Shown here in pieces: positions 39,466 to 40,483 of a stretch of DNA of 64,000 nt. Source of the stretch: a phage; sequence record PX104380.1; one strand, 5' to 3'. The notes beneath the pieces were generated by a model that worked only from the letters and a program-made list of their open reading frames with translations, did no database searches and had not been told where the DNA came from. How positions within the stretch are numbered: the first letter of the stretch is position 1; each line of letters begins with the position of its first letter. The translations under genes and the position numbers were made by a program.

Positions 39466-39541
39466 TGGTCGAGGCAGTAGGGATCGAACCTACGACCTAG
39501 GACTTAGAAGGTCCTTGCTCTTCCTTCTGAGCTATGCCCCG
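39466..39541 (-). tRNA. tRNA-Arg (anticodon UCU)
   Basis: Manual fold: acceptor CGGGGCA/TGCCTCG, anticodon loop CTTCTAA, T-arm GGTTCGATCC, encoded CCA. Confidence 0.85.
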
Positions 39542-39545
39542 TAAT

Positions 39546-39621
39546 TGGGGTGACCGATGGGAGTCGAACCCATGACTACGAGAATCACAATCTCGAGTTC
39601 TACCAACTGAACTACGGCCAC
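39546..39621 (-). tRNA. tRNA-His (anticodon GUG)
   Basis: Manual fold: acceptor GTGGCCG/CGGTCAC, discriminator C73, anticodon loop TTGTGAT. Confidence 0.8.
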
Positions 39622-39735
39622 ATTAATACCTACTCCAACAATCAAGATGTCTTCACACGAAATTAAGAGAAGAGTGATCAGTTCAACCCCTATAATCGCG
39701 TCAAGTAGATATTAATGTGACAGTTGTCACAAATT

Positions 39736-39810
39736 TGGCGGACGTGATAGGATTCGAACCTATAACCAATCGCTTAACAGGCGATCGCTCTGCCATTGAG
39801 CTACACATCC
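39736..39810 (-). tRNA. tRNA-Asn (anticodon GUU)
   Basis: Manual fold: acceptor GGATGTG/CACGTCC, anticodon stem ATCGC/GCGAT, loop CTGTTAA. Confidence 0.8.
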
Positions 39811-39814
39811 AAAT

Positions 39815-39901
39815 TGGTGGGGAGTGGTGGAGTCGAACCACCCGAGTCGCAATGACAATGAATTTACAGTCCACACCGCTACCTCTACGGGATAACTCCC
39901 C
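39815..39901 (-). tRNA. tRNA-Tyr (anticodon GUA), long variable arm
   Basis: Manual fold: acceptor GGGGAGT/ACTCCCC, anticodon loop CTGTAAA, 87 nt. Confidence 0.7.
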
Positions 39902-39910
39902 AAATTAATT

Positions 39911-39985
39911 TGGTGGCCCTGGGTGGAATTGAACCACCATCTGGCGATTATGAGTCGCTTGCTTGAACCTTCCAGCTACAGGGCC
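39911..39985 (-). tRNA. tRNA with CAU anticodon (Ile-lysidine type as in T4, or Met)
   Basis: Manual fold: acceptor GGCCCTG/CAGGGCC, anticodon loop CTCATAA. Confidence 0.75.
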
Positions 39986-39986
39986 T

Positions 39987-40062
39987 TGGTGCTGATTAAC
40001 GGAATCGAACCGCCGACCTTCTCATTACAAGTGAGTTGCTCTACCTACTGAGCTAAATCAGC
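39987..40062 (-). tRNA. tRNA-Thr (anticodon UGU)
   Basis: Manual fold: acceptor GCTGATT/AATCAGC, anticodon loop CTTGTAA. Confidence 0.8.
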
Positions 40063-40067
40063 AAAAC

Positions 40068-40157
40068 TGGCGGAGGTGATAGGATTCGAACCTATGAATC
40101 GCCGGAGCGACTGCCGGTTTTCAAGACCGGTGCATTCAACCACTCTGCCACACCTCC
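40068..40157 (-). tRNA. tRNA-Ser (anticodon UGA), long variable arm
   Basis: Manual fold: acceptor GGAGGTG/CACCTCC, anticodon stem CCGGT/ACCGG, loop CTTGAAA, 90 nt. Confidence 0.8.
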
Positions 40158-40159
40158 AG

Positions 40160-40233
40160 TCTCCATACAAGGATTTGAACCTTGGACCTCCTGATCCCAA
40201 ATCAGGCGCTCTACCAAACTGAGCTACACGGAG
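40160..40233 (-). tRNA. tRNA-Pro (anticodon UGG), 3' CCA not encoded
   Basis: Manual fold: acceptor CTCCGTG/TATGGAG, anticodon stem CCTGA/TCAGG, loop TTTGGGA. Confidence 0.8.
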
Positions 40234-40243
40234 TAAATTAAAT

Positions 40244-40317
40244 TGGAGCGGATAATGAGAATCGAACTCACATCATCAGATTGGAAGTCTGAGGTAATAC
40301 CATTATACGATATCCGC
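40244..40317 (-). tRNA. tRNA-Gly (anticodon UCC)
   Basis: Manual fold: acceptor GCGGATA/TATCCGC, anticodon stem TCAGA/TCTGA, loop CTTCCAA. Confidence 0.85.
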
Positions 40318-40322
40318 AAATT

Positions 40323-40409
40323 TGGTGCGAGAAGTGGGACTCGAACCCACAAGGAAATCATTCCGCAGCATTTTAAGTGCTGTGCCTTTACCAATTTGAC
40401 CATTCTCGC
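40323..40409 (-). tRNA. tRNA-Leu (anticodon UAA), long variable arm
   Basis: Manual fold: acceptor GCGAGAA/TTCTCGC, anticodon stem CAGCA/TGCTG, loop CTTAAAA. Confidence 0.85.
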
Positions 40410-40410
40410 G

Positions 40411-40483
40411 CTGGGAATAAAGGACTCGAACCTTTGCATCCTGGAATCAAAATCCAGTGCCTTACCAACTTGGCTAATTCCCA
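40411..40483 (-). tRNA. tRNA-Gln (anticodon UUG), 3' CCA not encoded
   Basis: Manual fold: acceptor TGGGAAT/ATTCCCA (U1-A72), anticodon stem CTGGA/TCCAG, loop TTTTGAT. Confidence 0.85.

What the first reader, a model, noticed from the sequence alone, without database searches (positions are those of the whole stretch)
39466..40483. Eleven-tRNA cluster: the T4 set plus Tyr, Asn and His
Manual folding of the minus strand gives eleven tightly packed tRNAs in transcription order Gln(UUG), Leu(UAA), Gly(UCC), Pro(UGG), Ser(UGA), Thr(UGU), CAU-anticodon (Ile2/Met), Tyr(GUA), Asn(GUU), His(GUG) with C73, Arg(UCU). T4 as I know it encodes eight; Tyr, Asn and His are extra. Pro and Gln lack an encoded CCA. 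Extra tRNAs may offset codon-usage mismatch or host anticodon nucleases.
Basis: partly seen in the sequence, partly recalled or inferred. Interest (0 to 1): 0.5.

Follow-up and report, generated by a model that had tools for sequence, protein, structure and literature searches.

The report
T2-type phage tRNA gene cluster
The eleven tRNA genes are real, but this is the ordinary, already annotated tRNA operon of T2/wV7-type relatives of phage T4; the only fresh detail is an unannotated structured RNA that sits directly in front of an unusual histidine tRNA.

Summary
Gln and Pro lack an encoded CCA, and His has C73.

The window is a Tequatrovirus, 99% identical here to Shigella phage KRT47 and phage wV7. 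The same 11 tRNAs are annotated in wV7, and 265 phage records carry at least 80% of the region. It is not simply "T4 plus three". T4's Ile(3' part)-segB-Arg block is replaced by a T2-type cassette (Ile2-like CAU, Tyr, Asn, a different Arg-UCU, ORF116), plus a 190-nt insertion carrying tRNA-His. Homologs of T4 rnaD and rnaC follow at 38838-39100.

Function:
- Codon supply fits the eight classical tRNAs, and Tyr and Asn.
- It does not fit His, whose codons are rarer in the phage than in the E. coli sample.
- The Tyr gene is identical to T6 tRNA-Tyr, published as a counter to the Septu defence.
- Host tRNA-Asn is a published PARIS target.

Side finding: tRNA-His lacks the encoded G-1. It is always preceded by a conserved, covarying 95-nt three-helix RNA that ends at nt -1. 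Phage T5 has a similar layout (stable RNA III next to tRNA-His). This RNA is unannotated and absent from Rfam.

Verdict: already known, low interest, with one modest new lead.

The parts
40410..40483 (-). tRNA-Gln(UUG). No encoded CCA (G73, then C, then G1 of Leu).
   Evidence: ARAGORN; Rfam 67.4 bits; sequence. 66/74 identical to T4, with all differences in the anticodon stem and at loop positions 32 and 38.
40323..40409 (-). tRNA-Leu(UAA), CCA encoded
   Evidence: 87/87 identical to T4.
40244..40317 (-). tRNA-Gly(UCC), CCA encoded
   Evidence: 74/74 identical to T4.
40159..40233 (-). tRNA-Pro(UGG). No encoded CCA (A73-C-U).
   Evidence: 75/75 identical to T4.
40068..40157 (-). tRNA-Ser(UGA). 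CCA is encoded here, unlike in T4.
   Evidence: 83/90 identical to T4, whose gene ends ...CCGTAA.
39987..40062 (-). tRNA-Thr(UGU)
   Evidence: 72/76 identical to T4.
39911..39985 (-). tRNA with anticodon CAU. Best read as tRNA-Ile2 (lysidine type); databases annotate it as tRNA-Met.
   Evidence: 58/76 identical to E. coli ileX, with an identical anticodon stem-loop (GCGACUCAUAAUCGC) and acceptor stem GGCCC/GGGCC; clearly less similar to metT. Identical to the T2 allele. Homology to T4 tRNA-Ile ends about 20 nt into the gene, at 39966.
39815..39901 (-). tRNA-Tyr(GUA), with a long variable arm
   Evidence: ARAGORN. Rfam shows it only as a 30.9-bit tRNA-Sec clan hit. 87/87 identical to T6 tRNA-Tyr, which is expressed and counteracts Septu (PMC13096335).
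39736..39810 (-). tRNA-Asn(GUU)
   Evidence: 100% identical to the T2 gene. In T2L this gene holds the preferred SegB cleavage site (PMC2330249).
39717..39735 (-). Start of the insertion relative to T2. Contains the palindrome GUGACAACUGUCAC, which is not conserved in other genera.
   Evidence: Fold; alignments.
39622..39716 (-). Conserved 95-nt structured RNA element: a 14-bp closing stem P1, arm P2/P3 and hairpin P4. Its last nucleotide is nt -1 of tRNA-His.
   Evidence: Whole 114-nt spacer folds at -32.7 kcal/mol, z = -4.36, 0 of 200 shuffles as stable. Consensus fold. P1 and P4 are 100% paired, with 5 pairs changed on both sides. Covariance model hit of 105 bits at exactly these coordinates. 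Found in about 360 phage records, always 5' of tRNA-His. No Rfam match.
39546..39621 (-). tRNA-His(GUG): C73 and CCA encoded, but no encoded G-1 (nt -1 is U)
   Evidence: Aligned to E. coli hisR it is 61/77 identical and lacks the extra 5' G. The same holds in all homologs examined.
39466..39541 (-). tRNA-Arg(UCU), T2-type allele
   Evidence: 48/79 identical to T4 Arg; 2 mismatches to T2 Arg.
39097..39447 (-). ORF of 116 aa of unknown function, part of the T2-type cassette
   Evidence: ORF list; phrog_3355, E = 1e-51, unknown function; no Pfam family above cut-off; a 351-nt ORF sits at the same position in T2 and wV7.
38983..39100 (-). Homolog of T4 rnaD (stable species 2 RNA)
   Evidence: 114/116 identical to T4 rnaD. 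T4 annotation.
38838..38976 (-). Homolog of T4 rnaC (stable species 1 RNA)
   Evidence: 137/139 identical to T4 rnaC.

Best explanation
This is the polycistronic tRNA operon of a T2/wV7-type T-even phage (genus Tequatrovirus).

Shown:
- Eleven canonical tRNA genes, followed by a small ORF and the two stable RNAs rnaD and rnaC, lie on one strand between the trna.2 ORF and the e.8 side of the genome.
- The promoter-proximal six genes (Gln to Thr) are the T4 genes.
- T4's segB-containing block is replaced by the T2 cassette: Ile2-like CAU, Tyr, Asn, Arg-UCU and ORF116.
- A 190-nt module carrying a structured leader RNA plus tRNA-His is inserted between Asn and Arg.

Inferred:
- The transcript is cut into tRNAs by host RNase P and 3' processing enzymes, and host CCA-adding enzyme completes Gln and Pro.
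- The eight NNA-reading tRNAs, plus Tyr and Asn, top up the tRNA species that the AT-rich phage genes use 1.5 to 10 times more than host genes do.
- The same extra copies buffer the phage against host defences that cleave tRNAs. This is published for tRNA-Tyr against Septu. It is plausible for Asn and Thr against PARIS.
- The mosaic gene content reflects cassette exchange at tRNA 3' ends, driven by homing endonucleases such as SegB. SegB's preferred target lies in this very Asn gene.
For: Identity and anatomy:
- 11 tRNAs.
- 99% identity to KRT47 and wV7; 265 records cover at least 80% of the region.
- The wV7 RefSeq record annotates the same 11 tRNAs.
- T4 layout and homology breakpoints at 39966 and 39097.
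- T2 carries the same CAU, Tyr, Asn and Arg alleles and the same 351-nt ORF.
- rnaD and rnaC homologs.

Supply: in 79 window ORFs compared with 41 E. coli K-12 genes, AGA is 9.7x, AUA 5.5x, UCA 3.9x, GGA 3.8x, ACA 3.4x, UUA 2.9x, CAA 1.6x and CCA 1.5x. Tyr codons are 1.79x and Asn codons 1.65x.

Defence:
- The window tRNA-Tyr is 87/87 identical to T6 tRNA-Tyr.
- In PMC13096335, Septu EcB88 cleaves tRNA-Tyr. T6 tRNA-Tyr overexpression or gene amplification restores plating. T4, which lacks Tyr, cannot escape, and T2 is resistant.
- The phage Asn has G39 and G41 where the host has U39 and C41, at the AriB site U36AAUC|C41.

Mosaicism:
- The SegB preferred site is in T2L tRNA-Asn, and SegB excludes the Met-Tyr-Asn-Arg region in T4 x T2L crosses (PMC2330249).
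- The window Asn is 100% identical to T2 Asn.
- The insertion boundaries are CCAAAT and CCAAT, that is, tRNA 3' ends.
Against: - No expression, processing or phenotype data exist for this phage, so all functional steps are inferred from relatives.
- His codons are rarer in the phage (0.64x), so supply does not explain tRNA-His.
- Lys codons are 1.74x, yet no tRNA-Lys is encoded.
- The 7-nt anticodon loops of Tyr, Asn and His are identical to those of the host tRNAs, so there is no evasion by anticodon-loop mutation.
- Septu also cleaves T6 tRNA-Tyr, so protection works by dosage rather than resistance. This phage has no segB next to Tyr to amplify the gene.
- tRNA-His lacks G-1, the main identity element for E. 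coli HisRS (PMC9976931), so efficient charging is uncertain.
- The codon comparison uses one 50-kb E. coli sample and mechanically chosen window ORFs.
Confidence: 0.85

Rival explanations
1. Pure codon and amino-acid supply. All eleven tRNAs exist only to match the tRNA pool to the AT-rich codon usage of phage genes. Defence plays no role.
For: Codons read by ten of the eleven tRNAs are enriched 1.5 to 9.7 times in window ORFs relative to the E. coli sample. This is the classical explanation for the T4 tRNAs (textbook knowledge).
Against: His codons are depleted (0.64x; CAC 0.26x, CAU 1.03x). Lys codons (1.74x) have no phage tRNA. Published experiments show a defence-related phenotype for the identical tRNA-Tyr (PMC13096335). 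The tRNA region is described as non-essential for phage development (PMC2330249).
Confidence: 0.3
2. Primarily anti-defence. Tyr, Asn and His were acquired as spare or decoy substrates for tRNA-cleaving immune nucleases (Septu/retron-Eco7 PtuAB for Tyr, PARIS AriB for Asn and perhaps His, or nucleases of the colicin E5 kind, which cut the QUN-anticodon tRNAs Tyr, His, Asn and Asp).
For: Tyr against Septu is published for the identical gene. E. coli tRNA-Asn(GUU) is a secondary AriB target, and tRNA-His(GUG) fragments were seen by sequencing. The phage Asn differs from the host at positions 39 and 41, which flank the AriB cut. The three extras are three of the four GUN/Q34 tRNAs, which are the colicin E5 substrates (my own knowledge, not tested here).
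Against: Septu also cuts the phage Tyr. The anticodon loops are identical to the host's, so an E5-type nuclease would cut them too. No tRNA-Lys is present, so PARIS would not be overcome (one search shows that T4 needs T5 tRNA-Lys). There is no evidence for any His-specific defence.
Confidence: 0.35
3. Largely neutral passengers. The extra tRNAs persist because they sit in a recombination hot spot shuffled by homing endonucleases. Their presence or absence mainly reflects marker exclusion and cassette exchange, not selection for function.
For: Closely related phages carry 7 tRNAs (T6), 8 (T4), 9 (T2) or 11 (this type), with sharp breakpoints at tRNA ends. SegB cleaves inside these tRNA genes and drives replacement of the T2L cassette. 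The region is non-essential.
Against: The tRNAs keep intact cloverleaves. tRNA-His shows compensatory changes in its anticodon and T stems across genera while keeping GUG and C73. That indicates purifying selection on function.
Confidence: 0.15

Closest known systems
tRNA gene cluster of Escherichia phage wV7 (NC_019505), Shigella phage KRT47 and other Tequatrovirus genomes of this type
   Same: 98.9-99.1% identical over the 1351 nt tested. The same 11 tRNAs in the same order are annotated in wV7, with the same flanking ORFs trna.2, trna.3 and trna.4 and the 351-nt ORF.
   Different: Nothing substantive. The CAU tRNA is labelled tRNA-Met there. The 114-nt spacer and rnaC/rnaD are not annotated.
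Phage T2 / T2L tRNA region (Brok-Volchanskaya et al. 2008, PMC2330249; AP018813)
   Same: Both lack segB. Both carry the same CAU, Tyr (1 mismatch), Asn (identical) and Arg-UCU (2 mismatches) alleles and the same downstream 351-nt ORF. The Asn gene is the preferred SegB target.
   Different: T2 has an ORF in place of tRNA-Thr. It also lacks the 190-nt leader plus tRNA-His module, so Asn is followed directly by Arg. T2 has 9 tRNAs rather than 11.
Phage T4 tRNA cluster (Gln Leu Gly Pro Ser Thr Ile | segB | Arg rnaD rnaC)
   Same: Same genomic position. The first six tRNAs are 89-100% identical. rnaD and rnaC are 98% identical. Gln and Pro lack CCA in both.
   Different: T4 has segB and different Ile(CAU) and Arg(UCU) alleles. 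It has no Tyr, Asn or His, and its Ser and Ile lack an encoded CCA.
Phage T6 tRNA-Tyr, the anti-Septu tRNA (Chihara et al. 2026, PMC13096335)
   Same: The tRNA-Tyr gene is identical, 87/87.
   Different: In T6, Tyr is adjacent to segB, which amplifies it under Septu pressure. This window has no segB in the cluster. T6 also lacks Pro, Ser, Asn and His.
Phage T5 stable RNA III next to tRNA-His (NC_005859 annotation)
   Same: A roughly 100-nt RNA sits immediately 5' of a tRNA-His that has U rather than G at -1. A 14-bp stem pairs its 5' and 3' ends and closes a multi-branch loop, with a small hairpin just before the 3' strand. The T5 record calls it a stable RNA with unknown functions.
   Different: No demonstrable sequence homology: the covariance model of the T-even element scores 8.6 bits, E = 0.24, and only on the closing stem. 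Accumulation of the T-even element as a stable RNA has not been shown.

Membership tests
T-even (Tequatrovirus) tRNA operon | Same-strand array of tRNA genes located between trna.2/ipI and the e.8/e gene block | tested here: met
   Flanks are 96% identical to T4 on both sides. wV7 has the same neighbours.
T-even (Tequatrovirus) tRNA operon | Contains the T4 tRNAs and the stable RNAs rnaC and rnaD | tested here: met
   Six tRNAs are 89-100% identical to T4. rnaD is 114/116 and rnaC 137/139 identical. The CAU and Arg genes are non-T4 alleles.
T2-type segB-less cassette (Met/Ile2-Tyr-Asn-Arg) | No segB. CAU, Tyr, Asn and Arg-UCU alleles of T2, followed by the 351-nt ORF | tested here: met
   Alignment to T2 is near-identical apart from the 190-nt insertion. 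The only segB similarity in the window is at 11916-12074.
T2-type segB-less cassette (Met/Ile2-Tyr-Asn-Arg) | Preferred SegB cleavage site within tRNA-Asn | not testable with these tools
   The Asn gene is 100% identical to T2, and the site was mapped in T2L. The 27-bp site is given only in a figure that is not held, and cleavage cannot be assayed here.
Bacterial-type tRNA-His | Anticodon GUG and discriminator C73 | tested here: met
Bacterial-type tRNA-His | Gene-encoded G-1 pairing with C73 | tested here: not met
   Nucleotide -1 is U. The alignment to E. coli hisR shows the 5' G is missing. The same holds in all phage homologs examined. G-1 is a major identity element in Bacteria (PMC9976931).
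tRNA-Ile2 (lysidine-modified CAU) | CAU anticodon with an ileX-like anticodon stem-loop and acceptor stem (C4-G69, C5-G68, A73) | tested here: met
   15/15 identical anticodon stem-loop core. Acceptor stem is GGCCC/GGGCC with A73. 58/76 identical to ileX and less similar to metT.
tRNA-Ile2 (lysidine-modified CAU) | C34 converted to lysidine by TilS; charged with Ile | not testable with these tools
   Requires RNA mass spectrometry or charging assays.
Anti-defence phage tRNA (tRNA-Tyr against Septu / retron-Eco7) | Sequence identity to a phage tRNA shown experimentally to restore infection | tested here: met
   87/87 identical to T6 tRNA-Tyr; experiments in PMC13096335.
Anti-defence phage tRNA (tRNA-Tyr against Septu / retron-Eco7) | Rescue of this phage on a defence-carrying host | not testable with these tools
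   Needs plating assays.
T5 RNA III-like stable RNA | Lies directly 5' of tRNA-His, with a closing stem that pairs its two ends | tested here: met
T5 RNA III-like stable RNA | Detectable sequence or profile homology to T5 RNA III | tested here: not met
   Covariance model score 8.6 bits, E = 0.24 over 551 nt, on the closing stem only.
T5 RNA III-like stable RNA | Accumulates as a discrete stable RNA in infected cells | not testable with these tools
   Needs northern blots or RNA-seq.
Rfam tRNA (RF00005), for the Tyr gene | Score at or above the gathering threshold of 29 bits | tested here: inconclusive
   Not listed at gathering threshold. Only the clan-best tRNA-Sec hit of 30.9 bits is shown. 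ARAGORN calls it, and it is an experimentally expressed tRNA in T6.

The most novel reading that the evidence does not exclude
The 95-nt three-helix RNA whose closing stem ends exactly at nucleotide -1 of tRNA-His is a dedicated partner of a G-1-less phage tRNA-His, not a spacer. [quoted passage not shown] Alternatively it is released by that cut as a stable small RNA with its own role. The pairing of a leader helix with a G-1-less tRNA-His would then be a conserved device. It is shared by Tequatrovirus, Jiaodavirus, Karamvirus and Moonvirus, reduced to a simple hairpin in Erwinia and Aeromonas phages, and matched in layout, though with no detectable sequence homology, by RNA III of T5.
Probability: 0.2. 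Interest if true: 0.6.

Novelty: already known. Interest (0 to 1): 0.22.

Why it matters
The finding as stated adds nothing new. Eleven-tRNA clusters of this type are annotated in hundreds of sequenced T4-like phages. The T2-type Met/Tyr/Asn/Arg cassette was described in 2008, and the anti-defence role of the identical tRNA-Tyr was published in 2026. The cluster is still a useful marker: it says this phage probably resists Septu-type tRNA-Tyr cleavage better than T4 does. It also says the phage would probably lose this locus to segB-carrying phages in mixed infections.

The part worth a follow-up is small. Phage tRNA-His genes lack the G-1 that E. coli HisRS normally needs. In every case examined with the leader element or a hairpin, that helix ends at position -1. 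How such a tRNA is matured and charged in E. coli is an answerable question, and the element could be added to RNA family databases.

Tried and rejected
- **Rfam on the spacer.** Nothing maps to 39622-39716 at gathering threshold or at E up to 10. The sub-threshold sX4, YrlA and Plastid-ycf2 hits fall on tRNA bodies and are tRNA look-alikes.
- **Coding potential of the spacer.** No ORF of any length worth considering; listed ORFs of 30 aa or more overlap tRNAs mechanically. The GGAG-N9-AUG-UGG-CCG-UAG mini-ORF at the tRNA-His 5' end is noted but treated as coincidence.
- **Promoter or terminator in the spacer.** The consensus scans found no more sites than shuffled sequence gives: 8 promoter-like sites against 7.0±3.1 expected, and 1 terminator-like site against 1.9. 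P1 is not followed by a T run.
- **Spacer as a homolog of T4 rnaC or rnaD.** Rejected: the true rnaD and rnaC homologs lie downstream at 38838-39100.
- **Homology to T5 RNA III by covariance model.** Not significant. Only the architecture is shared.
- **Evasion by anticodon-loop mutation (the model in PMC10264068).** Rejected for Tyr, Asn and His, whose loops are identical to E. coli's.
- **Reading G39621 as G-1 of tRNA-His.** Rejected: it would break U8, the D stem and the 3' CCA register.
- **IMG/VR pattern scans.** Only 1 and 8 loci, two of them chance matches. The metagenome scan gave 21 loci, eight of which belong to an unrelated tRNA array that carries the same kind of G-1-less His.
- **Literature search for T5 stable RNAs.** No papers found in the held library.
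Full report
**1. Observation**

ARAGORN finds 11 tRNA genes in the whole window.

Rfam's tRNA model calls ten of them at 59-74 bits, against a threshold of 29. Tyr, a long-variable-arm tRNA, appears only as a 30.9-bit tRNA-Sec clan hit. It is nevertheless identical to the expressed tRNA-Tyr of phage T6.

Reading the genes with their flanks confirms three further claims:
- Gln (…G73-C, then G1 of Leu) and Pro (…A73-C-U) lack an encoded CCA.
- The other nine genes encode CCA.
- His has C73.

The genes are 1-12 nt apart, with one exception: a 114-nt gap between Asn and His.

**2. What the window is**

The region is 99.1% identical to Shigella phage KRT47 and 98.9% identical to Escherichia phage wV7 (Tequatrovirus). 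Of the phage records searched, 971 match and 265 cover at least 80% of the 1351-nt query. The wV7 RefSeq record annotates the same eleven tRNAs, with the CAU gene labelled Met. The cluster as such is therefore already in the databases many times over.

**3. Anatomy relative to T4, T2 and T6**

T4 has Gln Leu Gly Pro Ser Thr Ile | segB | Arg rnaD rnaC.

A blastn comparison of the T4 region with the window gives two collinear blocks: 40592-39966 at 96% and 39097-38529 at 95.8%. Between them, T4's Ile(3' part)-segB-Arg is replaced by window 39098-39965.

Gene by gene against T4:

| Gene | Identity to T4 | Note |
|---|---|---|
| Leu, Gly, Pro | identical | |
| Ser | 83/90 | has an encoded CCA here, unlike T4 |
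| Thr | 72/76 | |
| Gln | 66/74 | all changes in the anticodon stem and at positions 32/38, with pairing kept |
| CAU | 48/77 | different allele |
| Arg(UCU) | 48/79 | different allele |

Phage T2 (AP018813) has Gln Leu Gly Pro Ser | ORF | Met(CAU) Tyr Asn Arg | 351-nt ORF. Its CAU gene is identical to the window's. Its Tyr differs by 1 mismatch, its Asn is identical and its Arg differs by 2 mismatches. In T2, Asn is followed directly by Arg. The window has a 190-nt insertion there, bounded by CCAAAT and CCAAT, which carries the spacer and tRNA-His.

T6 has Gln Leu Gly Thr Met Tyr | segB | Arg. Its tRNA-Tyr is 87/87 identical to the window's.

The 116-aa ORF after Arg belongs to phrog_3355, of unknown function, and has no Pfam family above cut-off.

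In short, the cluster is the T4 promoter-proximal half, plus the T2 cassette, plus a His module, plus T4's rnaD and rnaC.

**4. Identity of the CAU tRNA**

It is 58/76 identical to E. coli ileX, with an identical anticodon stem-loop core (GCGACUCAUAAUCGC), acceptor stem GGCCC/GGGCC and A73. It is clearly less similar to metT. I read it as a lysidine-type tRNA-Ile2 that decodes AUA, a codon 5.5 times more frequent in window ORFs than in the E. coli sample. The modification itself cannot be tested here.

**5. What the tRNAs are for**

Codon counts in 79 window ORFs were compared with 41 annotated E. coli K-12 genes.

| Codon(s) | Ratio, window / E. coli sample |
|---|---|
| AGA | 9.7x |
| AUA | 5.5x |
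| UCA | 3.9x |
| GGA | 3.8x |
| ACA | 3.4x |
| UUA | 2.9x |
| CAA | 1.6x |
| CCA | 1.5x |
| Tyr codons | 1.79x (UAU 2.6x) |
| Asn codons | 1.65x (AAU 3.5x) |
| His codons | 0.64x |
| Lys codons | 1.74x (no phage tRNA) |

The classical supply argument therefore fits the eight NNA readers, and Tyr and Asn. It does not fit His, and Lys is enriched without a phage tRNA.

The defence argument has published support.
- Septu EcB88 (PtuAB) cleaves the variable arm of tRNA-Tyr. T6 tRNA-Tyr overexpression or SegB-driven amplification restores infection. T4, which lacks Tyr, cannot escape, and T2 is resistant (PMC13096335).
- Retron-Eco7 is neutralised by phage tRNA-Tyr (PMC11555353).
[quoted passage not shown] Fragments of tRNA-His(GUG) were seen by sequencing. 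The T5 Lys, Thr and Asn tRNAs together neutralise PARIS (PMC12409363).

The phage Asn has G39 and G41 where the host has U39 and C41, at the AriB site.

There are caveats:
- Septu also cuts the phage Tyr.
- The anticodon loops of Tyr, Asn and His are identical to the host's.
- There is no tRNA-Lys.
- Nothing has been tested in this phage.

I conclude that supply and defence buffering both contribute, and that the gene content is set by cassette exchange. SegB's preferred site lies in T2L tRNA-Asn, and SegB excludes the T2L Met-Tyr-Asn-Arg region in crosses (PMC2330249). The window's Asn gene is identical to T2's.

**6. The His module (side finding)**

(a) *tRNA-His lacks G-1.* The gene has G1-C72, C73 and CCA, but U at -1. 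E. coli hisR has the extra 5' G. G-1 and C73 are the major His identity elements in Bacteria, and G-1 is normally gene-encoded (PMC9976931). All phage homologs examined show the same U-1:
- Jiaodavirus, Karamvirus and Moonvirus;
- Erwinia phage FBB1 and Aeromonas phage phiAS5;
- T5;
- a set of metagenomic tRNA arrays.

Across these homologs the anticodon and T stems change with compensation while GUG and C73 are kept. This is a selected tRNA, not a pseudogene.

(b) *The 114-nt spacer is structured.*
- It folds at -32.7 kcal/mol, z = -4.36, and none of 200 shuffles folds as well.
- Its last 95 nt (39622-39716) are conserved at 75-100% identity in about 360 phage records from E. coli, Shigella, Klebsiella, Enterobacter, Raoultella and Citrobacter phages.
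- It always lies immediately 5' of tRNA-His, whatever the upstream gene: Asn here, Gln in Klebsiella, Enterobacter and Citrobacter phages.

(c) *Consensus structure and covariation*. The structure has a 14-bp closing stem P1 whose 3' strand ends at nt -1 of tRNA-His, an arm P2/P3, and a 4-bp hairpin P4.
- P1 and P4 are 100% paired in nine distinct sequences.
- P1 has three pairs, and P4 two, that are changed on both sides. One P4 position shows four pair types.
- Sliding the partner strand drops pairing to 38-50%.
- Two lineages (AShe-2020a/Ra_O-2 and IMG/VR L019) replace the P2/P3 arm with unrelated sequence yet keep P1 and P4.
- Only about six independent lineages are sampled, so this is good but not conclusive evidence for a functional RNA structure.

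(d) *Covariance model searches.* A model built from these sequences hits only this position in the window (105 bits) and finds nothing in the T4, T2 or T6 regions. It finds Citrobacter phage Merlin at 27.6 bits, E = 8e-5, with a further flipped pair in P1. Erwinia FBB1 and Aeromonas phiAS5 keep only a roughly 31-nt hairpin that again ends at -1.

(e) *The T5 parallel.* The T5 record annotates a 106-nt "RNAIII, stable RNA with unknown functions" directly 5' of its tRNA-His, whose annotated 5' end is U-1. That RNA also folds with a 14-bp closing stem around a multi-branch loop. The covariance model score is not significant (8.6 bits, E = 0.24), so the resemblance is architectural and homology is not demonstrated.

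(f) *Status.* No record annotates the element, and Rfam 15 has no match.

Most likely mechanism (inferred): the element is co-transcribed with the tRNAs and released by the RNase P cut at the tRNA-His 5' end, as a small RNA with paired termini. Alternatively, or in addition, its closing helix influences where that cut falls.

**7. Verdict**

The finding is an already known, widely annotated feature of T2/wV7-type T-even phages and is of low interest. The G-1-less tRNA-His with its conserved structured leader is a modest, testable lead.

Noticed in passing
window 39622-39716 (minus strand); also L008:1504-1598, L010:1508-1602, L012:1204-1294, L019:4798-4904, L051:297-400, L054:306-400: An unannotated, conserved 95-nt structured RNA (14-bp closing stem, variable arm, 4-bp hairpin) lies immediately 5' of tRNA-His in four Tevenvirinae genera. 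It has compensatory changes in both conserved helices and no Rfam family.
   Followed up: yes
window 39546-39621 and nt 39622; L049:2207-2284 (T5); L052, L053, L025-L045: The phage tRNA-His genes keep C73 and GUG but lack the gene-encoded G-1 that E. coli HisRS uses. Nucleotide -1 is U in every case examined, including T5 and metagenomic tRNA arrays where His directly follows another tRNA's CCA.
   Followed up: partly
They belong to the same operon-like module.
   Followed up: yes
window 39097-39447 (minus strand): A 116-aa ORF (phrog_3355, unknown function, no Pfam family) is wedged between tRNA-Arg and rnaD. Its stop codon overlaps the start of the rnaD homology. The same ORF is present in T2 and wV7.
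   Followed up: partly
window 11916-12074: A stretch 72% identical to part of T4 segB (E = 7e-17), presumably another GIY-YIG seg-type homing endonuclease gene elsewhere in the window.
   Followed up: no
window 40410-40483 (tRNA-Gln): Compared with T4 tRNA-Gln, the whole anticodon stem is swapped with pairing kept (CUGGA/UCCAG against UAGCA/UGCUA). Loop positions 32 and 38 change from C to U. The rest of the gene is identical. This is an allelic anticodon-arm replacement of unknown significance.
   Followed up: no
window 39540-39545 and 39730-39738 (junctions of the 190-nt insertion relative to T2): Both insertion boundaries fall at tRNA 3' ends (CCAAAT and CCAAT). The SegB paper reports a preference for cutting 3' of CCAR, which suggests that tRNA cassettes are exchanged at CCA-proximal microhomologies.
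   Followed up: no
window 39612-39637 (minus strand): The invariant GGAG in the 3' strand of P1 is followed 9 nt later by AUG-UGG-CCG-UAG, which overlaps nt -2 to +10 of tRNA-His. It looks like a Shine-Dalgarno sequence plus a 3-codon mini-ORF. GGAG is also the T4 RegB cleavage motif (my own knowledge). Probably coincidental.
   Followed up: no
L008 (Klebsiella phage Roth16) 856-1108, 1185-1345, 1675-1770: Several other 65-250-nt gaps between tRNAs in Jiaodavirus and Karamvirus clusters are annotated as tiny hypothetical proteins or left blank. They may hold further small structured RNAs like the T5 and T4 stable RNAs.
   Followed up: no
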